DNA of 59,504 bases from Acidocella sp. (lineage in GTDB: Bacteria; Pseudomonadota; Alphaproteobacteria; Acetobacterales; Acetobacteraceae). The number at the start of each line of letters is the position of its first letter. Within the stretch, counting starts at the first letter, position 1. Shown here in pieces: positions 42,612 through 59,504 of the stretch. The stretch lies in assembly GCA_052326845.1 (NCBI GenBank), contig JBKQJR010000005.1. One strand, given 5' to 3'. Made by a program: the position numbers and the translations under genes. The notes beneath the pieces are model-generated. The model worked only from the letters and a program-made list of their open reading frames with translations, did not search any database and was not told where the DNA came from.

Positions 42612-44422
42612 GCGGGGCGGCATTTGGCGGCGGACACGCCGGCGTGGGCGGCGAGGTGGATGAGGACATCTACGCACCGTTCAACTCCTCCGTTCTCAAG
42701 CGCGTCGCGGCCTTCGTGGCCCCGTACAAGGCCGGATTCTTCGTGGCGCTCAGCGCGGTGATGTGCTTCGTCGCCGCCCAACTCGCCATCCCCTATGTCA
42801 TCCGCGCCGCCGTGAACGCCGCCGTGCACAAACCCGGCGCGCTGCCCATCAACACGGTGGGCGTCATCTTCCTCGCGGTCATCGGCTTCAACGCCGCCGC
42901 CTCTTATTCCCAGGAGGTGCTATCGGCGCGGCTCGCCCAGCGGGTCATCTTTGACATGCGCCGCGCCATGTTCGCGCATCTGCAGGACGTCTCGCTCTCG
43001 TTCCTCGACAAGACCCATGTCGGGCGCATCATGTCCCGCCTCCAGGGCGACGTGAATGCGCTGCAGGAATTCTTCGAGACCTCCATCCAGGCCACCGGTG
43101 ACCTCGTGCTGCTCGTCGGCATTATCGCCGTGCTGCTGGTCATGGAATGGCGCCTGGCCCTCGTCACGCTCACCGTGCTGCCGGTGATGATCTTCATCCG
43201 CGCGCTGTGGCTGCCGCAGGCCAAGATCAAGTTCCGCCGGGCGCGCGACGCCTCCTCCATCGTGAACGGCGCACTGGCTGAGAATATTGCCGGCGTGCGG
43301 GTGGTGCAGGGGGCGCGGCGCGAGCGCGTCAACCTCGCCGACTTCGCGCAGAAGGCCAACAACAATTTGGAGGCGCAGGTGGCCGTCTCCTGGACCTCTC
43401 AGATCATGGTCCCCACGGTGGACGTGCTCACGGGCCTAGCCATGGCGGCCATCGTGCTCATTGGCGGGCAGTTCGTGCTCAAGGGCACCATGGACCTCGG
43501 TATCATGGTCGCCTTCATCTTCTATGTGCAACGCTTCTTCGACCCCATCCGCACGGTAAGCCAGCAATATACCATGATGCAGCGGGCCACGGCGGCCAGC
43601 CACCGAATCCTGGAGGTCATCGACGTGCCGCTGCAGATCGAGGACAAGCCCGGTGCGCAGCCGCTGGAAGCCAAGGAGTTCTCGATTGAGTTCGACCACG
43701 TGAAATTCGGCTACAAGCCCGGCCAGATTGTGCTCAAGGACCTCAGCTTTACCGTGCCCGCCAACAGCACGGTGGCGCTCGTCGGCCCCACCGGTTCTGG
43801 CAAGACCAGCGTCTCGGCACTCATCCACCGCTTCTACGATGTGAACGAGGGGCAGGTGCACATCGGCGGGCAGGACGTGCGCGACGTCACGCTGGCGTCG
43901 CTGGGGCGGCACATCGCCATTGTGCTCCAGGAGCCCTTCCTGTTCACCGGCACCATATTGGAAAATATCCGCTATTCCTCGCACTGGGCCAGCCGCGAGG
44001 ATATCATAGAGGCGGCCAAGGCCACTCAGGCGCATGAGTTCATCTCGCGCCTGCCGCTGGGTTACGACACGCTGCTGGAGCAGCGCGGCCAGAACCTCTC
44101 CATCGGCCAGCGCCAGCTGCTCAGCTTCGCGCGCGCCCTGGTGGCCGACCCGCATATCCTCATCCTGGACGAAGCTACGGCCAGCATCGACAGTTTCGTG
44201 GAGGCGCAGATCCAGCAGGCGCTGCGCGTGCTGCTGGAAGGACGCACCAGCATCGTCATTGCCCACCGCCTGGCCACGGTGCGCGACGCCGACAACATCA
44301 TCGTGCTGCGCTCGGGCGAGATCCTGGAGCAGGGCAATCACGAGCAGTTGCTCGCCGCGGGCGGGCTGTATGCCATGCTGTACCGCAAGAATTTCTCGTC
44401 CTTTGACGAGGCGGCGGAATAG
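42608..44422 (+). CDS. Type IV ABC half-transporter (TMD+NBD) with degenerate signature
   Basis: GPTGSGKT, LSIGQRQ, ILILDEATASID and IAHRL motifs. ATGA overlap with its partner. Confidence 0.92.
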   Translation: MSGAAFGGGHAGVGGEVDEDIYAPFNSSVLKRVAAFVAPYKAGFFVALSAVMCFVAAQLAIPYVIRAAVNAAVHKPGALPINTVGVIFLAVIGFNAAASYSQEVLSARLAQRVIFDMRRAMFAHLQDVSLSFLDKTHVGRIMSRLQGDVNALQEFFETSIQATGDLVLLVGIIAVLLVMEWRLALVTLTVLPVMIFIRALWLPQAKIKFRRARDASSIVNGALAENIAGVRVVQGARRERVNLADFAQKANNNLEAQVAVSWTSQIMVPTVDVLTGLAMAAIVLIGGQFVLKGTMDLGIMVAFIFYVQRFFDPIRTVSQQYTMMQRATAASHRILEVIDVPLQIEDKPGAQPLEAKEFSIEFDHVKFGYKPGQIVLKDLSFTVPANSTVALVGPTGSGKTSVSALIHRFYDVNEGQVHIGGQDVRDVTLASLGRHIAIVLQEPFLFTGTILENIRYSSHWASREDIIEAAKATQAHEFISRLPLGYDTLLEQRGQNLSIGQRQLLSFARALVADPHILILDEATASIDSFVEAQIQQALRVLLEGRTSIVIAHRLATVRDADNIIVLRSGEILEQGNHEQLLAAGGLYAMLYRKNFSSFDEAAE

Positions 44423-44955: not shown

Positions 44956-45972
44956 TTACCAGCGGTAAAGGCTGGGGCCGAACCGGGCCTCGTAGAAGGG
45001 AGATACGTGCGTACCCGGGGGAATGATCTCGTCGATGCGCGCCAGATCCTCCTTGGTCAGGGTGATCTCGGCGGCTTTTAGCGCGTCCTCGAATTGCTCC
45101 TCGGTGCGCGGCCCGATGATCGGCGCGGTGACGCCGGGCGCCTGGATGGCCCAGGCCGTGGCGAGTTGCGAGAGCGGGAAGCCCTTCTCGGCGGCAAGGA
45201 GCGTGAGCGGCTCGATGACATCATAGATGTGGTCGGTGAGGCGCCGTGCCTGCGGGCGGTTGGCGTTCACCGCGTAGCGGCTGTCGGCCGGCAGGGGCTC
45301 GCTGCGCTTGTACTTGCCGGTGAGCAGGCCGCCACCCAGCGGGCTCCAGGGAATGACGCCCAGGCCGAAAGTCTGCGCGGCGGGCAGCAGCTCGCGCTCA
45401 ATGCGGCGGTCCAGCAGATTATAGGGCGGCTGCTCGGAGACGAAGCGGTTGAGCCCCAGCTCCTTGGCGGCCCACAGTGATTCCACGAGCTGCCAGCCCG
45501 CGAAGGTGGAGGAGCCAATATAGCGAACCTTGCCGGAGCGCACGAGGTCGTCCAGCGCGCGCAGGGTTTCGTCGATGGCGGTATCGGGCTCCGGGCGATG
45601 GAGCTGGTAGAGGTCCACATAGTCGGTGCCCAGGCGCTTCAGGCTGGCCTCGGCCTGGGCGATGATGTGCCGCCGCGAGGAGCCGCGCAGATTGGGGGCG
45701 GTGTCGTGCATCGGAAGATGCACCTTGGTGGCCAGGAACACATGGCCGCGCTTGCCATTGCGCTTGAGCGCCTCGCCAGTGACCTCCTCCGACTTGCCGC
45801 GCGAATAGACATTGGCGGTATCGATGAAATTGATCCCGGCATCGATGGCGCGGTCGATGATGCGCACCGATGTCTCAAGATCGGTACGGCCGCCAAACAT
45901 CATGGTGCCGAGAACAAGGGGCGAGACCTTGACGCCGGTGCGGCCAAAGGGGCGGTAGTCGGATATTGCCAT
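44956..45972 (-). CDS. Aldo/keto reductase
   Basis: GINFIDTANVY, ATK, SLKRLGTDYVDLYQLH, GKVRYIG and PWSPLGGGLL motifs. ATG at 45972. Confidence 0.93.
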   Translation of the reverse strand: MAISDYRPFGRTGVKVSPLVLGTMMFGGRTDLETSVRIIDRAIDAGINFIDTANVYSRGKSEEVTGEALKRNGKRGHVFLATKVHLPMHDTAPNLRGSSRRHIIAQAEASLKRLGTDYVDLYQLHRPEPDTAIDETLRALDDLVRSGKVRYIGSSTFAGWQLVESLWAAKELGLNRFVSEQPPYNLLDRRIERELLPAAQTFGLGVIPWSPLGGGLLTGKYKRSEPLPADSRYAVNANRPQARRLTDHIYDVIEPLTLLAAEKGFPLSQLATAWAIQAPGVTAPIIGPRTEEQFEDALKAAEITLTKEDLARIDEIIPPGTHVSPFYEARFGPSLYRW

Positions 45973-46009: not shown

Positions 46010-47209
46010 TTATGAATCCTGGGCCAGCTTGCGCACGGGCTTGCCGGGCAGTTTTTGGTTGAGCAGGTAGTCGCCCGCCACGTGGTAGCGCCAATGGTTG
46101 GCATCGTGCACCGAATGGGTGCGGATGTTGCGCCAGTGACGGTCTAGGTTGCGGGCGCGCTCGGTGGACGAGGTGCCGGAGAGCGAGAAGATGTCGGTGG
46201 CGATGGCCAGCGCCACATCCTCGGCATAGGCCTTGGCCTCGGCCACCGCGACGGTGGCGGCAGCGGCGTTTTCCTCGGTCAGATTGGCGCGGGCGGCATC
46301 CAGCGCGCGCCCGGCGCGGGCGAGCAGCAACTCGGTGGCGTGGAGCTGCGTGACCAACTGGCCGAAGCGCAGGATGACATGCGGGTCCTCGGTTGCCGTG
46401 GCCACCGCCGCCCCCAGGCGCGGACGCTTACGCGCACGCACGGTCGCGACAGCATCGGCCAGGGCGTTCTGGGCGATGCCGACATCAATGGCCGTGTGCA
46501 AAAGCTGAGCGTAGGAGTGGAAAATGGCGGTGCGCTCGAACAGCTTGTAGTGCGGAATGACCTGGCTGGCCGGAACCGCGACATCGGTGAGGATGGCGGT
46601 GCCGCTATAGGCGACGCGCTGGCCAAAAGAATCCCAGTCGTCCAGCACCTGCACGCCGGGGGCCTGACGCGGCACAAAGGCCAGCACAAAGCGGTTTTCC
46701 TCGTCGAAGGCCGCCACCGGCAGCCAATGCGCCAGCAGCGCGCCGGTGCAGTAGTATTTCTTGCCGTTCAGCCGGTAGCCGCCCGCGCCGTCGGGCAGCA
46801 GGCGGGTGGCAAGGTTGAGCGCCGAGCTTCCGCCTATTTCGGCCTGGGCGTTGCCCAGCCGCGCGCCGGCCAGAATCTCGCCGAAGAAATGCGCCTGCTG
46901 TTCGGGGGTGCCGTCCTCGCCCACGGCCTCCAGAAAGAGGTAGTGGCTCTGCACCATCTGCGCCACGGCCGGATCGCCCGCCGAGAGCAATTGAAACACG
47001 CGCGCGATCGTCTCATACGAGACGCCGGCGCCGCCAAACGCGCGGGGAATGGTGATGGCAAGAATGCCACTGGCCGAAAGCCAGTCGAGTTCCGCCTGGG
47101 GTGGGGTGGGGGTGCGGTCGCGTCCGGCGGCGCCGGACTCCAAAAACAGCCGAAGCTCGTCGGCAACCTTCAGGGCTTCTTCTTCCGAGGCGATGATATG
47201 GGCGGTCAT
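46010..47209 (-). CDS. SfnB/DszC-like acyl-CoA-dehydrogenase-fold flavin monooxygenase
   Basis: LNGKKYYCTGAL, DDWDSFGQR and NLDRHWRNIRTHSVHD motifs. ATG at 47209. Confidence 0.88.
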   Translation of the reverse strand: MTAHIIASEEEALKVADELRLFLESGAAGRDRTPTPPQAELDWLSASGILAITIPRAFGGAGVSYETIARVFQLLSAGDPAVAQMVQSHYLFLEAVGEDGTPEQQAHFFGEILAGARLGNAQAEIGGSSALNLATRLLPDGAGGYRLNGKKYYCTGALLAHWLPVAAFDEENRFVLAFVPRQAPGVQVLDDWDSFGQRVAYSGTAILTDVAVPASQVIPHYKLFERTAIFHSYAQLLHTAIDVGIAQNALADAVATVRARKRPRLGAAVATATEDPHVILRFGQLVTQLHATELLLARAGRALDAARANLTEENAAAATVAVAEAKAYAEDVALAIATDIFSLSGTSSTERARNLDRHWRNIRTHSVHDANHWRYHVAGDYLLNQKLPGKPVRKLAQDS

Positions 47210-47267: not shown

Positions 47268-48758
47268 TTATTCAGCGGCGGAGTCGGCCGCCGCGCGTTC
47301 CCTGAATTCGTGGTGCGAGAGTTCCAGCCCCGCGTCATTGTTCTGCTCGGGAATGGCCAGTGGCTCCGTGGCCTTGCCGAAATTGGCGGGGTCGCGGAAC
47401 TGCGCGCCGTAATGCTCGGACAGCAGGCGGGCATTGCCCGCACCTAGCAGACGCTCGCGCAGGGTCTCGCCCGGGTTGTATGTCTCGCGGAAGCGCCCGC
47501 GCCGGCGCAGCTCGGGCACCACCAGCTCGATGAAGTCGCGCGCCGTGCCGGGCGTGAGGTACTGCACCAGGTTGATGCCGTCGATGTCATCGACATCCAG
47601 CCATTCCTCGATGCGGTCGGCGACGATGTCCGGCGTGCCGGCGACAAAGAAGCGGCCATAATTCACCGAGCGCAGCTCGGCCAGAATCTCGCCCACGGTC
47701 TGCTCGTCGCGGTAGCGCGGCGGGATGAACTCGTAGCCGCTCACCTCGCGCTTCTTCAACTCGCCGATGGTCACGGTCTCGGGGAAGGCGGTGTAGTCGA
47801 TACGCGACTGCGAATGTGCCAGACGCGCCTCGGCGCTGATGTAGCGCTTGTAGTTGTCAAATTTGGCGGAGACTTCGTCCGCGTCTTTGCCCACGATAAT
47901 GCCCGCCCCGGCCAGAAACTTGATGTTCTGCGGGTTGCGGCCATAGCGCGCGGCGCGGGCGCGCATGTCGGCCACGTTGGCCCGCACTGCCTCGGGCGAG
48001 CCACCGCCGGTGAACACCACCTCGGCATGGCGCCCGGCGAATTCCTTGCCCGCATTGGAGCCGGTGGCCTGGAACAGCACCGGCGTGCGCTGGCGCGAGG
48101 GCTGGCTGAGATGCGGGCCCTTGACCCTGAAGTGCGGCCCGGAATGGTTGATGTAGTGGACCTTTGAGGGATCGGTATAGACCCGGTGCTCGAGGTCCTG
48201 GATCACCGCGTCCTCTTCCCAGGAGCCTTCCCAGAGCTTGTAGAGCACGTCCAGATACTCGTTGGCGATGCGGTAGCGCTCGTCATGCGGCATTTCGGCG
48301 TCCAGGCCGTAATTGGCGGCCTGGTTGGGCAGATAGCTGGTCACGATGTTCCAGCCCACGCGACCCTTGGTGATGTGGTCGAGCGTGGAGAGACGGCGCG
48401 CGAAGCTGAAGGGCGGCTCGTAGGTGGTGGACGAGGTGGCGCCAAAGCCGAGATTCTTCGCTACCTGCGCCATGGCCGGGATGATGAAGAACGGGTCGTT
48501 ATTAGGGATCTGCAGCGCCTCGCGCAGCGCCGTCTCCGGCCCGCCACGGTATTGGTCATAGGCGCCCACCACGTCGGCCAAAAAAATGCCGTCGAACGTG
48601 CCGTATTCCAGGAGCTGGGCCAGCTCGGTCCAGAATTCGATGTCGTTGAACCGGTGGCGGTTGTTGTCTGGATGCACCCACAGGCCGTGGATGATGTGAC
48701 TGACGCAGTTCATCTCGAACAAGTTGACGTGCAGTTGTTTCTTTTCCTTGTCGGCCAT
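47268..48758 (-). CDS. NtaA/DmoA/DszA-family FMNH2-dependent monooxygenase (luciferase-like)
   Basis: NLFEMNC.SH...GLW, FDGIFLAD, ARRLSTLDH.TKGR.GWNIVTS, KLWEGSWE and QRTPVLFQA motifs. Confidence 0.92.
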   Translation of the reverse strand: MADKEKKQLHVNLFEMNCVSHIIHGLWVHPDNNRHRFNDIEFWTELAQLLEYGTFDGIFLADVVGAYDQYRGGPETALREALQIPNNDPFFIIPAMAQVAKNLGFGATSSTTYEPPFSFARRLSTLDHITKGRVGWNIVTSYLPNQAANYGLDAEMPHDERYRIANEYLDVLYKLWEGSWEEDAVIQDLEHRVYTDPSKVHYINHSGPHFRVKGPHLSQPSRQRTPVLFQATGSNAGKEFAGRHAEVVFTGGGSPEAVRANVADMRARAARYGRNPQNIKFLAGAGIIVGKDADEVSAKFDNYKRYISAEARLAHSQSRIDYTAFPETVTIGELKKREVSGYEFIPPRYRDEQTVGEILAELRSVNYGRFFVAGTPDIVADRIEEWLDVDDIDGINLVQYLTPGTARDFIELVVPELRRRGRFRETYNPGETLRERLLGAGNARLLSEHYGAQFRDPANFGKATEPLAIPEQNNDAGLELSHHEFRERAAADSAAE

Positions 48759-50319: not shown

Positions 50320-51669
50320 ATGTCAGACCGCAAGCAGCTTTCCATTGGCATGAATATTCTGGGCCTGGGCGGGCACCAAGCCGCCTGGCGCCTGGGCGAG
50401 GTGCCGTCCACTTCGATCAACAACCCCGATTACTACGTCAACATCGCCAAGATTTCCGAACGTGGCACACTCGACGCCATCTTCCTCGCCGACGGCCCGC
50501 AGCTTGGCGGTGATGTCGCCAAGGGCCCGGCTGGGCGCCCGGAGCCGACCATCCTGCTCACCGCCGTGGCGGCGGCGACCACGCATATCGGCGTGATCTC
50601 GACGCTCTCCACCACCTATAACGAGCCCTATAATCTGGCCCGGCGCGTGGCCTCGGTGGACCAGATCAGCAGTGGCCGCGCCGCCTGGAACCTCGTCACC
50701 AACGCGGGCGACGGGGCAGCGCAGAATTTCGGGCTGGACGAGGCGCCGCTGCATGTGAGCCGCTACGACCGCGCCGCCGAATTCGCCGAAGTGGTCATCA
50801 AGCTCTGGGACTCCTGGGAGGATGACGCGATCCTCGGCGATTGGAAGGGCGGCCACTACGCCGACCCGGCCAAGGTACATGAGATCAACCATCACGGCCG
50901 CTTCTTCAGCGTCAAGGGCCCGCTCAACGTCTCGCGCTCGCCGCAGGGCCGGCCGGTGATCTTCCAAGCTGGCGGCTCCGAGGGCGGCAAGGCCGTGGGC
51001 TCGCGCTATGCCGACGCGATCTTCTGCACCCAGACCACGCTGGAGGCGGGCATCGAGTTCTATAACGAGATGAAGACCCGCGCGCGTGCCTGGGGCCGCA
51101 ACCCCGATCACCTCAAGATCATGCCCGGCATTTCCACGGTCGTCGGCTCCACCGAGGAGGAGGCCGAGCGTCGGCGCGAATATCTCGACAGTTTCGAGGG
51201 CAATCGCGGCCTGATTGCGCAGATCGCCGGGCGCATCGGGATCAAGCCCGAGGAGCTGGACATCGACGCGCCGCTGCCCTGGGACAAGCTCGATGACCTC
51301 ACGCCGCCCGAGAAGGGCTCGCACGGGTTCTTCGAGGCACAGATCAAGCTCGCCCAAGCCGAGAACCTGACCGTGCGCCAACTCGCCCGGCACATCCGCT
51401 CGGGGCATCGCCTGGTGGTGGGCGCGCCGGAGCAGATCGCCGATACGATTGAGGAATGGTTCCGCGCTGGGGCGGCAGATGGCTTCAACCTGATGCCGGA
51501 CGCCTTCCCTTCGGGCGCCGAAATCTTCGTGGACCATGTGGTGCCCATCCTGCGCAAGCGCGGCATCTTCCGCCACGAATACACCGGCACGACCCTGCGC
51601 GAGCATCTGGGGCTGCCCAAGCCGGTGAGCCAGTTCGCCGCCGGGGCGGCTGAGGCCATCCGCGCATAA
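50320..51669 (+). CDS. NtaA/DmoA/SnaA-family FMNH2-dependent monooxygenase (luciferase-like)
   Basis: IFLAD, STTYNEPYNLARR.ASVD.IS.GRAAWN, WDSWEDDA, GPLN..RSPQGRPV.FQAG and TLREHLGL motifs. Confidence 0.92.
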   Translation: MSDRKQLSIGMNILGLGGHQAAWRLGEVPSTSINNPDYYVNIAKISERGTLDAIFLADGPQLGGDVAKGPAGRPEPTILLTAVAAATTHIGVISTLSTTYNEPYNLARRVASVDQISSGRAAWNLVTNAGDGAAQNFGLDEAPLHVSRYDRAAEFAEVVIKLWDSWEDDAILGDWKGGHYADPAKVHEINHHGRFFSVKGPLNVSRSPQGRPVIFQAGGSEGGKAVGSRYADAIFCTQTTLEAGIEFYNEMKTRARAWGRNPDHLKIMPGISTVVGSTEEEAERRREYLDSFEGNRGLIAQIAGRIGIKPEELDIDAPLPWDKLDDLTPPEKGSHGFFEAQIKLAQAENLTVRQLARHIRSGHRLVVGAPEQIADTIEEWFRAGAADGFNLMPDAFPSGAEIFVDHVVPILRKRGIFRHEYTGTTLREHLGLPKPVSQFAAGAAEAIRA

Positions 51670-51691: not shown

Positions 51692-53356
51692 ATGCTAACA
51701 AGATCAGCTTTCCTGCGCGGCGGAGCAGGGGCGGCGGCGTTACTTGCGGCGGGCGCGGCCCGCGCCGATGCGCCTCTGGGTCTGCCCTCCGGCGGCTATC
51801 GCGAGACACAGCCCGGCCGCCCCGGCGGCACGCTGCGCGCCTCTGTGGCCCTCGACATCGGAGCGCTGGACCCGCACGCCCTCTACGCCACCAACGTGGA
51901 GTGGATCGGCCGGCTGTTGTTCGACAATCTCGTCTATCTCGACGAGCAGGGCCGGCCCGCCCCCTGGCTGGCCACATCCTGGACCATCTCGCCCGACGGC
52001 AAGACCTACACCTTCTCGCTGCGCGACGATGTCACGTTCAGCGATGGCGCCAAGTTCAACGCCGAGGCGGTGCTGCTCAACCTGGAGCACATGCGCGCCC
52101 CGGCCACCAAATCGCCGCTGGCGGCGACGTATATCCAGCCTTACGCTAGCGGGCGGGTGGTGGACGAATACACCTTCGAGGCCACGCTGCACGCGCCCTA
52201 TTCGCCGTTCCTCTACGTGCTGGCGCAGGCCTGGCTGGCCATGGAATCGCCCAAGGTCATCAAGGAGCGCCCGCTCAGCCTCAACACGAATCCCATCGGC
52301 TCCGGGCCGTTCATCCTGGATAGCTACATGCCGCAGCTGGGCATGAGCTTTACCCGGCGCCCGGACTACAACTGGTCACCGCCGGTCACCGGCCATAAGG
52401 GCCCGGCCTATCTGGACCGGCTGGAATTCGAATTTGTCCCCGACGCCTCGGTGCGCTATTTCTCGCTGGCCTCGGGCGAGTACGACTTAACCATCGACCT
52501 GCCGCCCCAGGCCGGAGCGGCGGCGCTCGCCAACCCGGCGCTCGCCGTGACCAACCGCGTGCGCATGGGCTGCCCCAACCGCGCCATCGCCTTCAATGTC
52601 GCCGCGCCACCCTTTGACGACATCCGTGTGCGCCGCGCCGCCGCTCTGGCCATGGATCGCAGCGGCATCGCGCAGATCGCCGGCTTTGGCCTCTACCGGC
52701 CCATCGCCAATTTCCTCTCGGAGACAACGCCGTTCTACGATGCCTCGGCGGCAGGTGCGCTGGCCTACGACCCCGCCCATGCTAACGCGTTGCTGGATGA
52801 AGCCGGCTGGACCGGGCGAGACGCCGAAGGCTACCGCACGAAGGCGGGCACGCGTCTGGCGGCGAGCGTCGCCATTGCGGTGGGTGTCACCTCCATTCCA
52901 GTAATGGTGGAAATCCAGTCAGACATGCGACGGGTGGGCTTTGACCTGCAACTGGAAGCGCTGCCCACCGGCATGCTGCTGCAGCAGCGCATTGCCGGCC
53001 AGTATCAGGCCATGAGCGGCGGCGTGTGGCACACCAACACGCCCGACGCGCTGTACATCAACTATCATGGCAGCCAGATCCCGACCTTTCACGAGGGCGG
53101 GCAGAACACCTCGCGCCTCAACGATCCGGCGCTGAACGCGCTGCTGGAGCAGGCCCGCGAGGCCACCGACACAGCGGCGCTGACGGCGCTCTACGCGCAG
53201 GCGCAGGCGCGGCTCATCGAGTTGGTGCCCGCCGTGCCGCTCTACGACAACCAGTCGCTGATCGGCTTTGGCACCCGGGTGCGCGGCGTCATCTACGATA
53301 CCTCGCATGAAACCCCCCATTTCGAGACCATCTGGCTACAGGAGAGCGCGGCATGA
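51692..53356 (+). CDS. Family-5 (peptide/nickel-type) ABC substrate-binding protein
   Basis: GGTL, PWLA.SW..S.DGKTYTF.LR.DVTFSDG, PIGSGPF and PFDD.RVRRA motifs. Tat-like leader TRSAFLR. Confidence 0.9.
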   Translation: MLTRSAFLRGGAGAAALLAAGAARADAPLGLPSGGYRETQPGRPGGTLRASVALDIGALDPHALYATNVEWIGRLLFDNLVYLDEQGRPAPWLATSWTISPDGKTYTFSLRDDVTFSDGAKFNAEAVLLNLEHMRAPATKSPLAATYIQPYASGRVVDEYTFEATLHAPYSPFLYVLAQAWLAMESPKVIKERPLSLNTNPIGSGPFILDSYMPQLGMSFTRRPDYNWSPPVTGHKGPAYLDRLEFEFVPDASVRYFSLASGEYDLTIDLPPQAGAAALANPALAVTNRVRMGCPNRAIAFNVAAPPFDDIRVRRAAALAMDRSGIAQIAGFGLYRPIANFLSETTPFYDASAAGALAYDPAHANALLDEAGWTGRDAEGYRTKAGTRLAASVAIAVGVTSIPVMVEIQSDMRRVGFDLQLEALPTGMLLQQRIAGQYQAMSGGVWHTNTPDALYINYHGSQIPTFHEGGQNTSRLNDPALNALLEQAREATDTAALTALYAQAQARLIELVPAVPLYDNQSLIGFGTRVRGVIYDTSHETPHFETIWLQESAA

Positions 53357-54288
53357 GCGGCAGGTACCGGCATCTGCTCTGGCGCCTGGGGGCGGGCGCG
53401 TTGGTGCTCTGGGGCACCGTCACGCTCGTCTTCCTGGCCATCAACCTCACGCCGGGCGACCCGGCCATCACGCTGCTCGGCGGGCCAGATGCGCTGCCCA
53501 CACCGGCCATCCTGCATCAGGTACGAGCCGAATACGGGTTCGACGCGCCACTGCACGTGCAGTATCTGCGCTATCTGGGCCGCCTGCTGCAGGGTAATCT
53601 CGGCACCTCCTACCGGCTGCACCAGCCGGTGGCGGCGCTAATCGCCGGGCAAATCGGCGCCACCGCCACGCTCGCAGTTTCGGCCATGACGCTGGGGGTA
53701 GGGTTGGCGCTGATGGTGGCACTGGCCACCGCCAAGCGGGCACGCTGGCTCACTTCGCTGTTCAACGGCATCGAGGTCACGCTCTCCTCGGTACCCAGCT
53801 TCATTACTGGCCTCATCCTGCTGCTGGGCTTCTCCTTCAGCCTGCACCTGTTTCCCTCCTCCTCCACGCGCGGCTGGACGGCCAACATCCTGCCGACAAT
53901 CACCATGGCCATGCCCATCGCCGCCGTGCTGGCCCAGGTGCTGCGGCGAGAGCTGGAGGACATTCTGGAGCAGCCCTTCATCGTCACGGCGCACACCCGT
54001 GGCCTCTCGGAGGCCGGCGTGCGCCTGGGCCATGCCCTGCGCCATGCGCTAGTGCCCGCCCTCACCATCGCCGGCATGATGTTCGCCGGGCTGCTGTCCT
54101 CGGCCGTGGTGGTGGAGACCGTGTTCAACCGCCAGGGGCTGGGCCGCATGATGACGGACGCCACTGCCAACCGCGACGTGCCACTGGTGCTGGGCATCGC
54201 CCTGCTCGCCACCTCGCTCAACATTCTCATCAATATCGCCATCGACCTCATCAACGCGGTGATCGACCCCCGCACGGAGCGCTCATGA
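53353..54288 (+). CDS. DppB-like ABC permease
   Basis: PGDPA, G.D.PL.VQY, GNLGTS, HALRHA, VETVF.R.GLG and IDPR motifs. Confidence 0.9.
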   Translation: MSGRYRHLLWRLGAGALVLWGTVTLVFLAINLTPGDPAITLLGGPDALPTPAILHQVRAEYGFDAPLHVQYLRYLGRLLQGNLGTSYRLHQPVAALIAGQIGATATLAVSAMTLGVGLALMVALATAKRARWLTSLFNGIEVTLSSVPSFITGLILLLGFSFSLHLFPSSSTRGWTANILPTITMAMPIAAVLAQVLRRELEDILEQPFIVTAHTRGLSEAGVRLGHALRHALVPALTIAGMMFAGLLSSAVVVETVFNRQGLGRMMTDATANRDVPLVLGIALLATSLNILINIAIDLINAVIDPRTERS

Positions 54289-55142
54289 GCCAGCTGACCA
54301 CCACCCTCGGCAGCCTGGAGGCCCCGCACCCCTGGCTGCGTGACCTCCGTCCCGGCTTCATCCTGGCGGTGGCGTTTTTGCTGCTGCTGCTGCTGGCGGC
54401 GGCGTTTCCCGCCACGTTGGCGGGCACCGACCCGCTGGCCACCAATGCCCACAACCTGTTCGCACCGCCCAACACCGCGCATTGGCTGGGCACCGACGAA
54501 GACGGCCGCGACGTCTGGTCGCGCATTGTCTATGCGGTGCGACCCTCGCTGCTGCTGGGCACCAGCGCGGCGCTGTTCAGCGCCCTGGCCGGGGCGGCAC
54601 TGGGGGTGGCGGCCGGGCTGGGCACGCGCCTGGCCGACAACGCGTTGATGCGCTTTGCCGACATGCTGCAATCCTTCCCCGAGATCCTGCTGGTGCTGGT
54701 GATCATCTCCTTTTGGGGCGCCACCGACACCACGCTGGTTTTCGCCCTGGGCGTTGCCGGGGTGCCGCGCGCCGCGCGCCAGGTGCGGGCCCAGGCGCTG
54801 GGGCTGCGCCGTGCCGGATTTGTCGAGGCCGCGCTCACGCTGGGCCTGACGCACGGCACCGTCATCCGGCGCCACGTGCTGCCCAATGCCATAAAACCGG
54901 TGCTGGTTCTGCTGCCGCTCGACATCGGCTGGAAGATCGCCGCCGTCGCCACGCTCTCCTTCCTGGGCGTGGGCGCGCCGCCGCCCGCCCCGGACTGGGG
55001 CTCGATGCTGGCCATCGACCGTGATTACGTGCTCAACGGCTGGTGGCTTACAGCCTTCTCGGCGGGTATCATTACCGCGACCGTGCTGGCCGTTAACGCG
55101 CTGGGCCGCGAGCTGGTCCGCCGCAGCGAGGGCCGCGTCTGA
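54285..55142 (+). CDS. DppC-like ABC permease
   Basis: HWLGTD..GRD.WSR, RHVLPN, LSFLG.G and PDWG.M motifs. Confidence 0.9.
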   Translation: MSQLTTTLGSLEAPHPWLRDLRPGFILAVAFLLLLLLAAAFPATLAGTDPLATNAHNLFAPPNTAHWLGTDEDGRDVWSRIVYAVRPSLLLGTSAALFSALAGAALGVAAGLGTRLADNALMRFADMLQSFPEILLVLVIISFWGATDTTLVFALGVAGVPRAARQVRAQALGLRRAGFVEAALTLGLTHGTVIRRHVLPNAIKPVLVLLPLDIGWKIAAVATLSFLGVGAPPPAPDWGSMLAIDRDYVLNGWWLTAFSAGIITATVLAVNALGRELVRRSEGRV

Positions 55143-56809
55143 TGCGCCCGCTGCTGAACGTGCGCGATCTGCGCGTCGACTTTCCCGGCGGGCGCGAGCA
55201 GGTGGTGAAGGGCATCTCCTTCACGCTCAACCGCGGCGAATGCCTGGCGCTCATTGGTGAGTCTGGCTGCGGCAAGTCCGTGACGCTGCGCACGCTGGTG
55301 GGTCTGCCCGGCACAGGGGGCGTGGTGCGCGCCGAGGCGCTGGAGTTCGACGGCGCCGATACGCGCCGCTTCTCCCCGGCCCAGTGGCGCGACATACGCG
55401 GCGGGCGCATCGGCTTTGTCCTGCAGGACGCGCTGCTCTCGCTCGATCCGCTGCGCAAGGTGGGCGAGGAGATCGCCGAGCCGCTGCGCCTGCACCGCGC
55501 CCTTACCCGCCCGGCGCGCGAGGCCCGCATGCTGGAGCTGTTGCGCGCCGTGGGCGTGCCCGAACCCGAGCTGCGCGCCGCGCAATATCCGGCCCAGCTT
55601 TCCGGCGGTCTGCGCCAGCGCGCGCTCATCGCCTCGGCCATCGCCTGCCAGCCTGAGCTGCTAATTGCCGACGAACCCACCACCGCGCTGGATGCGCTGG
55701 TGCAGACGCAAGTGCTCGACCTGCTGGCCAGCCTGCGCGACGGCAATACCGCCATGCTCATCGTCAGCCACGACCTGGCCGTGGCGGCGCGCCTAGCTGA
55801 CCGCGTGGCGGTGATGCGCGCCGGCGAGATTGTGGAAGCCGGCCCCACGCAAGAGATCTTGCGCCGTCCGCAGCACCCCTACACGCGCGAGCTGCTGGCC
55901 GCCGCCACCACCGTGCATGCCCACGATTCGGCTCCATCCGTGCCTGCGGCGCGCCGCTCCACACCAGTGGAGGTCGCCGCAATCGGCGTGACCAAGAGCT
56001 TCGCCAGCCCCGGCGGCGGCAAGCGCCTGGCCTTAGCCTCCTCCTCTGTCACGCTGCGCGCCGGCCGCACGCTGGGCATCGTTGGCGGCTCAGGTTCGGG
56101 CAAAACCACGCTCACCCGCATCATCCTGGGGCTGGAGAAAGCCGATTCCGGCGAGGTCCAGTTTCAGGGCCGTCCTTGCCTGACCCTCTCCCCCGCCGAG
56201 CTCCGCGCCGCCCGCCGTCGCGTACAGCCGGTGTTCCAAGACCCGCTCAGCTCCTTCGACCCGCGCTACACGGTGGAGGCCGTCCTGGGCGAGGCGCTGA
56301 ACGTGGCGGGCTACAAGCGCGGCCCCGAGCGCCGCGCCCGCGCGCTGGAGTTGCTGCATCTGGTGCGCCTTGATGAGTCGCATCTGCCGCGCCGGCCCAT
56401 CGAACTTTCCGGCGGCCAGCGTCAGCGCGTCGCCATCGCCCGCGCCCTGGCGCCTGAACCCGCCGTGCTCATCTGCGACGAACCGGTTTCAGCCCTCGAC
56501 ATCCCGGTGCAGGCGCAAATCCTCACGCTGCTTGCCGAACTCAAGCGCGACCTCAACCTCGCTTGCCTGTTCATCTCGCATGATCTCGGCGTGATCCGCC
56601 GCGTGAGCGACGACATCGCCGTGATGAAGGACGGCCATATAGTGGAGACGGGCGAGGCCAGCGACATTTTCCGCGCCCCGCGTCACCCCTATACGCAGGC
56701 CCTCCTCGCCGCCATCCCGGATGTGGAATTTCATACCGATGCCGCGTCATCTCCGATGGATAATAGTTGCGATCAGGAAGCTGGTCGTGGAATGTTTTTT
56801 GTATACTGA
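55142..56809 (+). CDS. Fused DppD/DppF-like double-domain ABC ATPase
   Basis: Two Walker A (GESGCGKS, GGSGSGKT), two signatures (LSGGL, LSGGQ) and two HPYT motifs. Confidence 0.92.
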   Translation: MRPLLNVRDLRVDFPGGREQVVKGISFTLNRGECLALIGESGCGKSVTLRTLVGLPGTGGVVRAEALEFDGADTRRFSPAQWRDIRGGRIGFVLQDALLSLDPLRKVGEEIAEPLRLHRALTRPAREARMLELLRAVGVPEPELRAAQYPAQLSGGLRQRALIASAIACQPELLIADEPTTALDALVQTQVLDLLASLRDGNTAMLIVSHDLAVAARLADRVAVMRAGEIVEAGPTQEILRRPQHPYTRELLAAATTVHAHDSAPSVPAARRSTPVEVAAIGVTKSFASPGGGKRLALASSSVTLRAGRTLGIVGGSGSGKTTLTRIILGLEKADSGEVQFQGRPCLTLSPAELRAARRRVQPVFQDPLSSFDPRYTVEAVLGEALNVAGYKRGPERRARALELLHLVRLDESHLPRRPIELSGGQRQRVAIARALAPEPAVLICDEPVSALDIPVQAQILTLLAELKRDLNLACLFISHDLGVIRRVSDDIAVMKDGHIVETGEASDIFRAPRHPYTQALLAAIPDVEFHTDAASSPMDNSCDQEAGRGMFFVY

Positions 56810-56841: not shown

Positions 56842-56860
56842 CTCTATAAAGTAGATAGAA
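56842..56860. promoter_or_regulatory. Operator box upstream of the TonB-dependent receptor
   Basis: CTCTATAAAGTAGATAGAA is 16/19 identical to 48880..48898. Confidence 0.7.
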
Positions 56861-56939
56861 TTGATATTGATAAAAATCGCAGCTTTGAATATCGGTTGTC
56901 CTGCTTCCGTTTGGGTCTAAAATTCAAGGACAAAATGAA

Positions 56940-59258
56940 ATGACTTATCGTACCGCCGGGCAGCGCCAACGCCCGAATAGCCGTCATTTTTGGGTGAACG
57001 CCCCGCTGGCGCTGGGGGTTGTGGGGCTGGTGCTGCACGCGGGCGCGGCGCGTGCGCAAACGCCGCCGCCCCCGCCGGTCAATGGCTCGCAGCTCACCGC
57101 CGTGATTGTTAAAGGCAAAACGCCTGCCCAGGCCGCGCGTGCCAAGCTCAGCAAGATTCCCGGCGGCTTCTCGGTGGTGGACAGCGCAGAGGTCGCCAAG
57201 GGCCGTGTGCGAAGCAACGCCGACCTGCTGAAGCTGCAGCCGGGTGTCATCGCCGCCGCCACGGGCGCCGGCGGCTTCGACTCGATCAAGGTCTCGATCC
57301 GCGGTTCGGGCGTGAATAACGGCGTCGGCTATTTCCGAAACGGCATCAAGTACGAGTTCGACGACCTGCCGGTGACCACGCCTTCTGGCACGCCCTATGA
57401 GCTGTTCGATCCTCAGGGCCTCGACTACACGGAAATTCTGCGCGGCGACAACGCTTTCACCACCGGTGACCTCGCCCTTGGCGGCACCATCGACTATCAT
57501 ACGAACACCGGCCGCACCGCGCCGTATAGCGAAATACGCACCGAATTCGGCAGCTTTGGCTATATAAAGGGCTCGGCAGCCACCGGCGGCGTGGTTGGCC
57601 CCTGGGACTATTACATCAACGTCATCGGCGAGAGCCAGAACGGCTGGCAGCAGCACTCCAACGCCTCGGCCCAGCACGTCATCGCCAATCTTGGCTACCA
57701 GATCAACGACAACGCCGAGACACGTGTGTATTTCCGCTACGGCAAGGAATTGTTCTACGGTCCCGGCGCGCTCACCCGCGGGCAGATCGAGAGTTCCACA
57801 CCGGACCAAGCCCAGCTCGCCTATTTGGAGACCAACTACAAGCGCAACCAGCCGGGTTCCGAGCTGATTGGTGACGTGACCAAGCTGCGCTTTGCCGATA
57901 ACCAGTCCGTTGAGCTTGGCCTCGCCTACCAGAACTTCCCCATCGTCATTGGTCCGAGCAGCACCTCCGCGCCGATCCTGGCGAAATGGGATTACGGCAA
58001 TATCGCCGCGCAGGTGAAGTACGAGAACACCTCGCGGCTATTCGGTCATGGCAACGACTTCACCGCCGCCGCTTATTGGTCCGACGACATCTACGGCGAC
58101 GCCAAGGAAGAGGCGATCGCCGCCGACGGCGCCAACCCCTACGGTACGAGCTACAGCTACCTGGGCGCGACCTATAAGATCGCCCCCACCTCCTACTACA
58201 ACATTCCCGGCGTAACGGCCGGCGAACGCCTGTACTGGAACAAGTTCAACGGCTCTACCGACCAGACCGCGCTGCTCTCCGACGATTTTGAGCTCATCCA
58301 TAACTTGTGGCTCACGCTGGGCGGCGCGGTCGTCAACACCCCGCGTAACTTCAACACCATAGGCAACACCTACGTGACGGGTACCACGATCCCGGTCGTG
58401 CAGACCCCGAGCTTCCGCAGCTCCGAGACGAACCTCATTCCGCGCATCGGCCTGCTTTGGGATGTGAGCCAGGACCTGCAGCTCTTCACGTCCTATGGCG
58501 GCAATATCGAGCCGCGCGAGGACTGGGCGGGCGGCTACGGCCCCTATAGCGGCACCACGGCCTCGACCTACCCGAATTACGGCATCCTGAACCTGAAGAA
58601 CCAGGAGGCCGACACGGTGGAGGTTGGCTTCCGCGGCCGTTATGGTATCTTCCAGGGCAGCACCGATTACTACTACGCGCAGGTTTCCGACGAGCTGCTG
58701 ACCATCTACGATGCCTCGATCGACGCCAACACCACCATCAACGCGCCGCACGCCACGCATCAGGGTGTTGAATCGGAGCTGGACACGGTGCTGTGGCAGG
58801 ATGGCGGCAGCTTCTGGGGCGACACCACCGGCGTGAACCGCGTGCATCTGGTGCAGACCTTCACCTGGAGTGACTTAACCTTCAACAGCAATGGCGGCGC
58901 CCTGAGCAACAAAACAGAGCCAGGCCTGCCGCCCGAATACTACCAGGGCGAGCTGGCCTTTGACGCCGCGAATGGCATCTACGCCAATTTCGACGCCACG
59001 GCGGCTTCTGGCACTTACGTTGACTATCTGAACACCTGGAAGGCGGCACCTTACGTTGTCTACGGCCTCACCGTCGGGTGGCAGCAGCAGCGCGCGGACA
59101 AAAAGGGCTGGCAGGTGTCGCTCAGCGTCGACAACCTGACCGACACCAAATACGCCGTGGCCATCGCGCCGACCTACAACGCGAACCATGCCGACTACGC
59201 CAACGAGTACCCCGGCGCTGGGCTGGGGGTGTATTCGGCGGTGGACTACAAATTCTAA
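56940..59258 (+). CDS. TonB-dependent outer-membrane receptor
   Basis: Signal peptide ending AARA, TonB-box-like LTAVIVKG, plug motifs SIRGSG and EILRG...LGGTI, NLTD.KY, and C-terminal YKF. Confidence 0.93.
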   Translation: MTYRTAGQRQRPNSRHFWVNAPLALGVVGLVLHAGAARAQTPPPPPVNGSQLTAVIVKGKTPAQAARAKLSKIPGGFSVVDSAEVAKGRVRSNADLLKLQPGVIAAATGAGGFDSIKVSIRGSGVNNGVGYFRNGIKYEFDDLPVTTPSGTPYELFDPQGLDYTEILRGDNAFTTGDLALGGTIDYHTNTGRTAPYSEIRTEFGSFGYIKGSAATGGVVGPWDYYINVIGESQNGWQQHSNASAQHVIANLGYQINDNAETRVYFRYGKELFYGPGALTRGQIESSTPDQAQLAYLETNYKRNQPGSELIGDVTKLRFADNQSVELGLAYQNFPIVIGPSSTSAPILAKWDYGNIAAQVKYENTSRLFGHGNDFTAAAYWSDDIYGDAKEEAIAADGANPYGTSYSYLGATYKIAPTSYYNIPGVTAGERLYWNKFNGSTDQTALLSDDFELIHNLWLTLGGAVVNTPRNFNTIGNTYVTGTTIPVVQTPSFRSSETNLIPRIGLLWDVSQDLQLFTSYGGNIEPREDWAGGYGPYSGTTASTYPNYGILNLKNQEADTVEVGFRGRYGIFQGSTDYYYAQVSDELLTIYDASIDANTTINAPHATHQGVESELDTVLWQDGGSFWGDTTGVNRVHLVQTFTWSDLTFNSNGGALSNKTEPGLPPEYYQGELAFDAANGIYANFDATAASGTYVDYLNTWKAAPYVVYGLTVGWQQQRADKKGWQVSLSVDNLTDTKYAVAIAPTYNANHADYANEYPGAGLGVYSAVDYKF

Positions 59259-59377: not shown

Positions 59378-59504
59378 TGAGCTGCTGCCGGTTTCGTGGA
59401 CACGACGATAAGATCGTGATCGAGGAACCGGAGAGAGGACATGACGAGACGGAAGTTTGGCAGTGAGTTCAAGATTGAGGCTGTGAAGCTGGTGACGGAG
59501 CGGG
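59378..59504 (+). mobile_element. Left end of an IS3-family element: left IR (59378..59402) and start of OrfA (59441 to the window edge)
   Basis: TGAGCTGCTGCCGGTTTCGTGGACA, then GAGGAC-ATG giving MTRRKFGSEFKIEAVKLVTER, a typical IS3 OrfA N-terminus. Confidence 0.93.

What the first reader, a model, noticed from the sequence alone, without database searches (positions are those of the whole stretch)
56940..59258. A 772-residue TonB-dependent receptor with no sulfur-containing residue after the initiator Met
Seen: reading the whole translation I find no Cys and no Met other than residue 1, so the mature protein is sulfur-free. Cys absence is normal in beta-barrels, but zero Met in 771 positions is not; at an assumed 1.5% Met the chance is about 1e-5. 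The promoter carries the island operator rather than an obvious Fur box. Established: sulfur sparing in abundant sulfur-starvation proteins. Inference: a highly expressed receptor for an organosulfur ligand, not a siderophore receptor as automatic annotation would probably suggest.
Basis: partly seen in the sequence, partly recalled or inferred. Interest (0 to 1): 0.8.

Follow-up and report, generated by a model that had tools for sequence, protein, structure and literature searches.

The report
Sulfur-free outer-membrane organosulfur importer
This bacterial outer-membrane importer is built with no sulfur-containing amino acid after its first residue and sits in a gene set, conserved in distant bacteria, that likely takes up and breaks an organic sulfur compound when sulfur runs short; related importers outside such gene sets carry ordinary amounts of methionine.

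Summary
In detail: the 772-residue ORF has Met only at position 1 and no Cys, and it is the longest sulfur-free protein of 2,513 called genes. The 1e-5 chance is overstated. TonB receptors are Met-poor, and 6 of 85 controls were sulfur-free over their last 600 residues.

The protein is a predicted 22-strand TonB-dependent transporter. Its nearest solved relative is YncD/PqqU, but it lacks the PQQ-binding arginines. It ends a module of a family-5 ABC importer, a DszC/SfnB-like and a CmoJ/DszA-like monooxygenase, which recurs at 50-69% identity in a distant genus. There, 18 paralogues in such loci carry 0-3 Met and 6 elsewhere carry 4-10, with same-genome pairs in 6 genomes.

A TCTAT-N7-ATAGA operator lies upstream. 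A matrix trained without this site ranks it 5th of 1,607 regions and also recovers cysK, cysD, a sulfite reductase and an Rrf2 gene, the likely regulator.

Verdict: likely a sulfur-starvation importer of an organosulfur compound, probably a thioether conjugate. Ligand, regulation and high expression are untested. Sulfur-regulated receptors and sulfur sparing are both known; my ten literature searches did not find this subfamily or the paralogue contrast.

The parts
56940..59258 (+). TonB-dependent transporter, 772 aa, no Met or Cys after residue 1; predicted signal peptide about aa 1-39, TonB-box-like QLTAVIV about aa 52-58, plug 70-183, 22-strand barrel, C-terminal Phe
   Evidence: AlphaFold pLDDT 91.4, pTM 0.89, 22 barrel strands counted by hand from DSSP; signal peptide and TonB box read by eye
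56843..56859 (.). Palindromic operator TCTAT-N7-ATAGA, about 96 nt upstream of the receptor, just before a -35-like TTGATA
   Evidence: rank 5 of 1,607 with this site left out of training; partly conserved at the same place in L001
48881..48897 (.). Second copy of the operator, in the divergent promoter of the island
   Evidence: conserved in L001
48994..50301 (+). DszC/MsuC/SfnB-like flavin monooxygenase (below the SfnB cut-off); predicted S-oxidation step
   Evidence: orthologues 50-55% identical beside the receptor in genus g249
50320..51669 (+). NtaA/DmoA-family luciferase-like monooxygenase, nearest solved relatives YtnJ/MoxC, NtaA and DszA; predicted C-S cleavage step
   Evidence: orthologues 66-69% identical in genus g249
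51692..53356 (+). Family-5 (peptide/nickel-type) ABC substrate-binding protein; 10 Met and 1 Cys, not sulfur-spared
53353..55142 (+). Two ABC permeases (53353-54288, 54285-55142)
55142..56809 (+). Fused double ABC ATPase; a terminator-like hairpin at 56767-56800 suggests the receptor has its own promoter
47268..48758 (-). NtaA/DmoA-family monooxygenase, nearest solved relatives alkane monooxygenase 3B9N and dimethyl-sulfide monooxygenase
46010..47209 (-). SfnB-family sulfur acquisition oxidoreductase (above the curated cut-off)
44956..45972 (-). Aldo/keto reductase; would handle the aldehyde released by C-S cleavage (inference)
40821..44422 (+). Heterodimeric MsbA-like ABC pair with a weaker operator upstream; possibly part of the island
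   Evidence: (rank 20); similar pair with operator-like sites near the receptor in L001

Best explanation
The gene encodes a TonB-dependent outer-membrane transporter with no sulfur-containing residue after the initiator Met, and it likely imports an organosulfur compound, probably a thioether conjugate of cysteine or glutathione, during sulfur starvation. Shown: the composition, the predicted fold, the conserved gene module and the operator's presence at sulfur genes. Inferred steps: (1) when cysteine or sulfate is low, a repressor, likely the Rrf2 protein at G000:C99:19388, leaves TCTAT-N7-ATAGA sites and frees this gene, the island, cys and ssu genes and a dedicated tonB-exbBD operon on C109; (2) the receptor, energised by that TonB, brings the ligand to the periplasm; (3) the family-5 ABC importer takes it to the cytoplasm; (4) the DszC/SfnB-like enzyme oxidises the sulfur and the CmoJ/DszA-like enzyme cleaves the C-S bond, giving cysteine-level sulfur or a sulfinate/sulfonate for SsuD; (5) because the protein is made only when sulfur limits growth, selection has removed Met and Cys from it.
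For: Context: an NtaA/DmoA monooxygenase lies beside the receptor in 6 of 6 same-family relatives and an SfnB-like enzyme in 5 of 6 (32 of 79 ORFs scanned). L001 has the whole island plus MetQ/MetI. Plasmid relatives lie beside ssuD and sfnG plus tonB-exbBD. In genus g249, 14 of 20 hand-picked regions hold orthologues of the window's own enzymes and ABC parts. Composition tracks context: 18 intact receptors in those 14 regions have 0-3 Met in the last 600 aa (mean 1.2), and 6 in the 6 marker-free regions have 4-10 (mean 7.0), with same-genome pairs in 6 genomes. 29 closest homologues including the query average 1.0 Met against 5.8 for 85 control receptors. Full-length representatives drop from 1.7-1.9 (45 top hits) to 5.3-5.6 (84 more distant hits). 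29 hand-picked sulfur-regulon genes of the genome have 1.12% Met+Cys against 2.97% for the rest. Operator: rank 5 of 1,607, with untrained hits at a NirA/CysI-like reductase (rank 10), Rrf2 (16), cysK (17), two SfnB-cluster promoters (21, 22) and cysD (36); the heme-type receptor C155 ranks 206. Precedent: P. aeruginosa receptor PA0192 rises log2 8.2 (mRNA) and 8.85 (protein) and tonB2 6.5 under sulfur starvation (PMC12581299 supplements).
Against: No ligand, expression or binding data. The marker-free, Met-containing g249 paralogues show that the subfamily is not purely sulfur-linked. The six marker-free members placed in the tree form one clade, so the contrast may be a single evolutionary event. 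Five members in sulfur loci keep 4-8 Met. Some genomes have Met-poor receptors throughout (means 1.4-2.7), and 6 of 16 control receptors with 0-1 Met had no sulfur marker. The partner binding protein is not spared (10 Met, 1 Cys). Codon adaptation is only at the 66th percentile. The operator was not found upstream of the receptor in the 6 other-genus relatives or the 2 sulfur-linked plasmid loci. The exact pattern CTAY-N7-RTAG is only modestly enriched genome-wide (19 hits, shuffle mean 10.1, maximum 17). The regulator assignment is circumstantial: the site also fits a LysR T-N11-A box, and 7 of 12 Rrf2 homologue loci lack a site.
Confidence: 0.72

Rival explanations
1. Same sulfur-starvation role, but the ligand is an aromatic or hydrophobic sulfide, sulfone or sulfonate (a dibenzothiophene-type substrate) handled by a DszC+DszA-like pair, not a peptide-like conjugate.
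For: The two enzymes resemble DszC/TdsC (E about 1e-34) and DszA (E 3e-88). The PqqU arginine R304 position is Tyr or Phe in 56 of the 72 top-scoring rows, which suits a less anionic ligand.
Against: The importer is a family-5 peptide-type ABC. YtnJ/MoxC scores above DszA. A gamma-glutamyltranspeptidase lies near one g249 locus and MetQ/MetI follow the receptor in L001.
Confidence: 0.13
2. The receptor is sulfur-regulated and sulfur-spared, but it imports a sulfur-free molecule needed by the module (a flavin, a PQQ-like cofactor or a metal chelate).
For: The nearest solved relative is the cofactor importer PqqU. Family-5 binding proteins also carry metal chelates, and NikA is the top PDB hit. 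Sister receptors lie beside copper genes, and one subfamily clade lies outside sulfur loci.
Against: Two of three PqqU signature residues are absent. The receptor is tightly co-located with the ABC importer and the catabolic enzymes across distant genera.
Confidence: 0.08
3. An ordinary iron or metal receptor whose lack of Met is drift, lineage composition, or avoidance of oxidation in an exposed protein of an acid-soil bacterium.
For: Two porin-like proteins of this genome are also sulfur-free (478 and 475 aa). Some relatives have Met-poor receptors throughout. A Fur half-site look-alike overlaps the promoter.
Against: Same-genome paralogues differ in Met according to sulfur context. The operator is shared with cys and ssu genes. 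Two other receptors of this genome have 7 Met each.
Confidence: 0.07

Closest known systems
YncD/PqqU (E. coli PQQ importer; PDB 6V81, 9C4O)
   Same: Nearest solved relative by profile (E 4e-83, against 3e-37 for the next) and by Foldseek (E 5e-39, 19% identity). It is a non-iron, Fur-independent receptor (PMC7193533, passages seen).
   Different: NCBIfam PqqU score 74.7 against a cut-off of 1200. R304 maps to F333 and there is no Arg near the R365 position. The context is organosulfur catabolism; a separate receptor of this genome lies in the pqq cluster (read by eye).
Sulfate-starvation TonB receptors: P. putida SftP (recalled) and P. aeruginosa PA0192 with TonB2
   Same: Receptor linked to desulfurisation genes and a sulfur-specific TonB; PA0192 and tonB2 are strongly induced by sulfur starvation (PMC12581299 supplements; PMC3377617 passage).
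   Different: SftP serves sulfate esters with a sulfatase and the LysR regulator SftR (recalled) and is listed in a cluster with FhuA/FpvA-type receptors (PMC3400609 passage). This protein is YncD-related and linked to thioether-type monooxygenases. No direct sequence comparison with SftP or PA0192 was possible.
Bacillus subtilis S-alkyl-cysteine salvage (CmoO/CmoJ) and the Dsz 4S pathway
   Same: An S-oxidising flavoenzyme followed by a C-S-cleaving luciferase-like monooxygenase (PMC10863075 abstract and opening). The window enzyme's best solved hit is YtnJ/MoxC, E 5e-98; that YtnJ is CmoJ is recalled.
   Different: Here the system is Gram-negative, with a TonB receptor and a family-5 ABC. 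The S-oxidase is of the DszC/SfnB fold. No acetylase, deacetylase or DszB was seen in the island.
Elemental (sulfur) sparing in sulfur-assimilation proteins
   Same: Met and Cys depletion in proteins used under sulfur limitation (PMC4357790 passages citing Mazel and Marliere 1989, Baudouin-Cornu 2001, Fauchon 2002; those three papers not read).
   Different: Here it is complete over 771 residues and visible as a contrast between same-genome paralogues of one receptor subfamily.

Membership tests
TonB-dependent transporters | N-terminal plug domain | tested here: met
   PF07715 47.4 bits, cut-off 23.9
TonB-dependent transporters | 22-strand barrel with C-terminal aromatic residue | tested here: met
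   PF00593 79.1 bits; 22 strands counted by hand in a model of pLDDT 91; ends in YKF
TonB-dependent transporters | TonB-dependent uptake of a ligand | not testable with these tools
   needs an uptake assay
PqqU/YncD | Aromatic residue at Y99 | tested here: met
   maps to Y131 through the profile alignment, by hand
PqqU/YncD | Arg at R304 | tested here: not met
   F333; Tyr or Phe in 56 of 72 top-scoring rows
PqqU/YncD | Arg at R365 | tested here: not met
   no Arg in residues 381-391; register approximate
PqqU/YncD | NCBIfam NF041535 cut-off | tested here: not met
   74.7 against 1200 bits
Siderophore/heme receptors | Curated family score | tested here: not met
   TIGR01786 56.3 against 323.75; TIGR01783 not among the hits at E 0.001
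Siderophore/heme receptors | Fur, Irr or RirA-type box and iron-gene context | tested here: inconclusive
   only a half-site look-alike to recalled Fur, ICE and iron-Rhodo consensuses; no iron genes in the island; this lineage's Fur box is unknown
SftP/PA0192-type sulfate-ester receptors | Sequence orthology to SftP | not tested
   no tool gave the SftP or PA0192 sequence
SftP/PA0192-type sulfate-ester receptors | Linked sulfatase and LysR regulator | tested here: not met
   none among the island genes scanned
Sulfur-starvation-induced proteins | Low Met+Cys content | tested here: met
   0 of 771 residues
Sulfur-starvation-induced proteins | Operator shared with cys and ssu genes | tested here: met
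   (prediction only; binding untested)
Sulfur-starvation-induced proteins | Measured induction under sulfur limitation | not testable with these tools
   needs expression data for this organism
CymR (candidate regulator G000:C99:19388) | NCBIfam CymR cut-off | tested here: not met
   73.7 against 195 bits; Rrf2 superfamily met, 116.9 against 73.3

The most novel reading that the evidence does not exclude
This is a widespread, uncharacterised YncD-related receptor subfamily that imports thioether S-conjugates of cysteine or glutathione for a conserved DszC/CmoJ-like salvage module, here under an undescribed Rrf2 sulfur regulon. Methionine count alone is a usable sequence tag for finding sulfur-scavenging receptors among the many that are auto-annotated as iron receptors.
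Probability: 0.35. Interest if true: 0.7.

Novelty: new variant of a known kind. Interest (0 to 1): 0.5.

Why it matters
Most TonB receptors have no known ligand and default to 'iron receptor'. This gives a specific subfamily a testable organosulfur substrate class. A match was found in 194 of 301 genomes of a Pseudomonas-group genus (counting the non-sulfur paralogues), so cultivable hosts should exist. Organic sulfur is the main sulfur pool in soils (own knowledge), and high-affinity outer-membrane uptake of thioethers is not mentioned in the sulfur passages of a 2024 review of these transporters. The same-genome paralogue contrast is a clean test case for elemental sparing, and the predicted Rrf2 operator would be a new route of sulfur regulation in this lineage.

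Tried and rejected
- A single-sequence PDB search found nothing; the profile was needed.
- The search for related loci gave only 1 locus. A class-wide search at E 1e-170 found only the own genome in 401, with 2 candidates scored per genome.
- A first reading that the whole subfamily is sulfur-linked was rejected: 6 of 6 top phylum-level hits lay outside sulfur loci and had 3-6 Met.
- Low Met as a strict tag was rejected: 10 of 16 control receptors with 0-1 Met had a sulfur marker within about 8 kb, against 3 of 22 with 2 or more (Fisher p 0.004, kin not independent). Pfam showed no clear sulfur enzymes beside the marker-free ones, and 2 of 14 sister receptors had 0-1 Met with no marker.
- PqqU membership was rejected.
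- My first guess of a LysR (CysB/Cbl) regulator was demoted but not excluded; the 23 LysR matches were not scanned for CysB.
- The codon-bias test gave no sign of constitutive high expression.
- Sequencing runs: no RNA holder listed; 5 soil-metagenome DNA rows from 2 studies hold most of the stretch, one possibly the source; none were laid.
- The maximum-likelihood tree did not finish; FastTree was used instead (midpoint root, local supports only).
- Earlier scan notes returned nothing.
- Tralau 2007 was not held. The X. citri paper had no TonB passage.
- No complex prediction was run, since no protein-protein binding is claimed.

Full report
OBSERVATION. Window 56940-59258 (+) encodes 772 aa with one Met (residue 1) and no Cys. 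Using a codon-model gene caller of my own (2,513 genes; Met 2.06%, Cys 0.90%), it is the longest of 46 sulfur-free proteins. It is the only one of 188 proteins over 600 aa with no Met in the last 600 residues. Pfam searches found three other whole receptors and one fragment. They carry 3 Met (C109, inside an ssu/tonB island), 7 Met + 2 Cys (C155) and 7 Met + 5 Cys (C25). The right null is other receptors. Of 90 receptor loci fetched from 10 same-family genomes (best 30 of each of three searches), 3 partial ones and 2 family members were set aside. The other 85 average 5.8 Met per last 600 aa, with 9 of 85 Met-free and 6 of 85 sulfur-free. The feature is therefore unusual (about 6e-4 binomial), but much less so than 1e-5.

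WHAT THE PROTEIN IS. It has plug and barrel domains and an AlphaFold model of pLDDT 91.4 in which I count 22 barrel strands. The nearest solved relatives are YncD/PqqU by profile (E 4e-83) and by fold (19% identity). Munder et al. define PqqU by Y99, R304 and R365 (PMC12124388, passages seen). Mapping by hand through the profile alignment, Y99 is kept as Y131, R304 becomes F333 (Tyr/Phe in 56 of 72 top-scoring rows), and no Arg lies near R365. It is a separate, well-supported clade (67 of 89 rows, local support 100; FastTree, midpoint root). Some members of its sister clade lie beside copper genes. Source names for close homologues are 'iron complex outermembrane receptor'.

CONTEXT. In the window the receptor follows a DszC/MsuC-like monooxygenase, an NtaA/DmoA-family enzyme nearest YtnJ/MoxC and DszA and a family-5 ABC importer. 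Divergently lie a second NtaA/DmoA enzyme, a true SfnB and an aldo/keto reductase. The receptor is patchy: 2 of 63 same-genus and 7 of 201 same-family genomes, both counts including this one. Island GC equals flank GC (0.65-0.66). L001 keeps the whole island and adds MetQ/MetI. All 6 same-family relatives have an NtaA/DmoA enzyme beside the receptor, 5 an SfnB-like one, 2 an SsuD and 1 an ssuABC set. Komagataeibacter and Methylocalor plasmid members lie beside ssuD and sfnG/tonB. In genus g249 (Pseudomonas group, judged from a 99% match to P0024) the receptor lies with orthologues of the window's binding protein (52-56%), permeases, DszC-like (50-55%) and CmoJ-like (66-69%) enzymes.

DOES MET LOSS TRACK SULFUR? 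The 29 closest homologues (query included; 3 weak hits left out) average 1.0 Met, and 14 of 29 are sulfur-free in the last 600 aa. Among full-length representatives the 45 best average 1.7-1.9 and the next 84 average 5.3-5.6. The sharpest test is within genomes. Of 20 g249 regions that I picked to span identity bands, 14 held sulfur-enzyme markers; their 18 intact receptors (one broken copy left out) have 0-3 Met. The 6 marker-free regions have receptors with 4-10 Met. Six genomes hold both kinds. The 30 best g249 loci all have 0-3 Met, 14 of them none. Against this: the six marker-free members placed in the tree form one clade, so this may be one event; five sulfur-linked members keep 4-8 Met, though three of them lie below their genome means of 8.3-9.5; three genomes have Met-poor receptors throughout; 6 of 16 low-Met control receptors have no sulfur marker; and the partner binding protein has 10 Met. 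Genome-wide, 29 hand-picked sulfur genes have 1.12% Met+Cys against 2.97%, as expected from known sparing (PMC4357790 passages).

OPERATOR. TCTAT-N7-ATAGA occurs twice in the window, at the divergent promoter and 96 nt before the receptor. Both are partly conserved in L001. I trained a matrix on six other sites (divergent promoter, ssu, tonB island, metY-like, a TauE-like gene recognised by eye, choline sulfatase). It ranks the receptor site 5th of 1,607 upstream regions, behind training sites only. Untrained hits include a NirA/CysI-like reductase, cysK, cysD and the C200 SfnB cluster, along with unrelated genes (for example ranks 8, 13, 18, 19); the sulfate-binding protein ranks 56. So it is a genome-wide sulfur motif, not an island motif. 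One of three Rrf2 genes, C99:19388, carries the site in its own promoter (rank 16). Its 82%-identical orthologue in G098 has sites scoring 13.7 and 18.9 and lies between ssuC-like and ssuA-like genes, and three other homologues precede a sulfate-binding-protein-like gene (neighbours recognised by eye). It fails the CymR cut-off. Seven of 12 homologue loci have no site, and the motif also fits a LysR T-N11-A box, so the regulator is a candidate only. The motif is absent before the receptor in other genera. No clear Fur box was found; one Fur-family gene is present.

MECHANISM. Shown: composition, predicted fold, module conservation, motif distribution. Inferred: sulfur starvation lifts repression; a tonB-exbB operon on C109 under the top-scoring site energises uptake, as TonB2 is thought to in P. 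aeruginosa; the ligand passes the ABC importer; S-oxidation and then C-S cleavage follow as in CmoO/CmoJ (PMC10863075) or DszC/DszA; SsuD and an FMN reductase elsewhere in the genome would complete it. I favour a thioether conjugate because the ABC is of the peptide type, the cleaving enzyme is nearest YtnJ, and the receptor has lost the cationic clamp. This is the weakest link. I put about 0.85 on a sulfur-starvation organosulfur importer of some kind, and less on the exact ligand class.

KNOWN OR NEW. Sulfur-induced TonB receptors are known (PA0192, log2 8.2 in mRNA and 8.85 in protein; SftP, recalled and listed), and so is sulfur sparing. Ten searches of the open library (terms combining TonB-dependent, sulfur or sulfate starvation, sparing, SftP, sfnB, PqqU, Rrf2, CymR, CmoJ) listed no paper on this subfamily, on Met-free receptors, or on this operator. 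I saw only listings for most, and subscription papers, including Tralau 2007 and the SftP paper, were not available. Seen as passages: PMC12581299 (main text and supplements), PMC4079955, PMC3400609, PMC3377617, PMC12124388, PMC11658791, PMC4501297, PMC4357790, PMC7193533; abstract and opening: PMC10863075. Supplements of the PqqU and YncD papers, which list homologue clusters, were not read and may include members of this clade.

VERDICT. A real feature and a largely correct first reading. It is a new variant of a known kind, with a testable ligand hypothesis and a useful paralogue contrast. Interest 0.5.

Noticed in passing
window 56935-56943 (+): A two-codon ORF (Met-Lys-stop) overlaps the receptor start codon, with its ATG 5 nt closer to the AAGGA ribosome-binding site; it could tune translation.
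   Followed up: no
G000:C99:19388-19849 (L148:1889-2350): Rrf2-family gene with the sulfur operator in its own promoter; homologues lie beside ssuA-like and sbp-like genes. Candidate global sulfur regulator of this lineage.
   Followed up: partly
G000:C109:2984-24915: A second sulfur island: ssuABCD, a family-5 ABC, hydrolases, a Met-poor TonB receptor (3 Met), tonB-exbB-exbD-exbD, and ssuA-like and tauD-like fragments.
   Followed up: partly
G000:C200:2286-11646: A third cluster with three SfnB-family enzymes (one wholly sulfur-free, 395 aa), an NtaA/DmoA enzyme and an amino-acid permease, beside a transposase-like gene.
   Followed up: partly
window 40821-44422 (+); L001:15070-18713 and 19522 onwards: A heterodimeric MsbA-like ABC pair travels with the island and has a weak operator, yet is Met-rich (18 and 13 Met); perhaps an exporter of the desulfurised product.
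   Followed up: partly
G000:C35:2-1438 and C45:20358-21785: Two related porin-like proteins (478 and 475 aa as called) are also sulfur-free; no family search was done.
   Followed up: no
L248:5949-13781, L249, L258: Tandem or divergent arrays of two or three Met-poor paralogues of this receptor around one enzyme module in genus g249, suggesting several related ligands.
   Followed up: partly
L204, L206, L211, L108: Sister-clade receptors lie beside CopC/CopD, PCuAC and methanobactin genes, pointing to an unnamed copper-linked YncD-like group.
   Followed up: no
window 59441-59504 (+): Start of an ORF resembling an IS3-family transposase at the contig end (resemblance recalled), so the island may continue on another contig.
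   Followed up: no
G000:C201:2248-2865: A C-terminal fragment of a TonB receptor with no plug, apparently a remnant.
   Followed up: no
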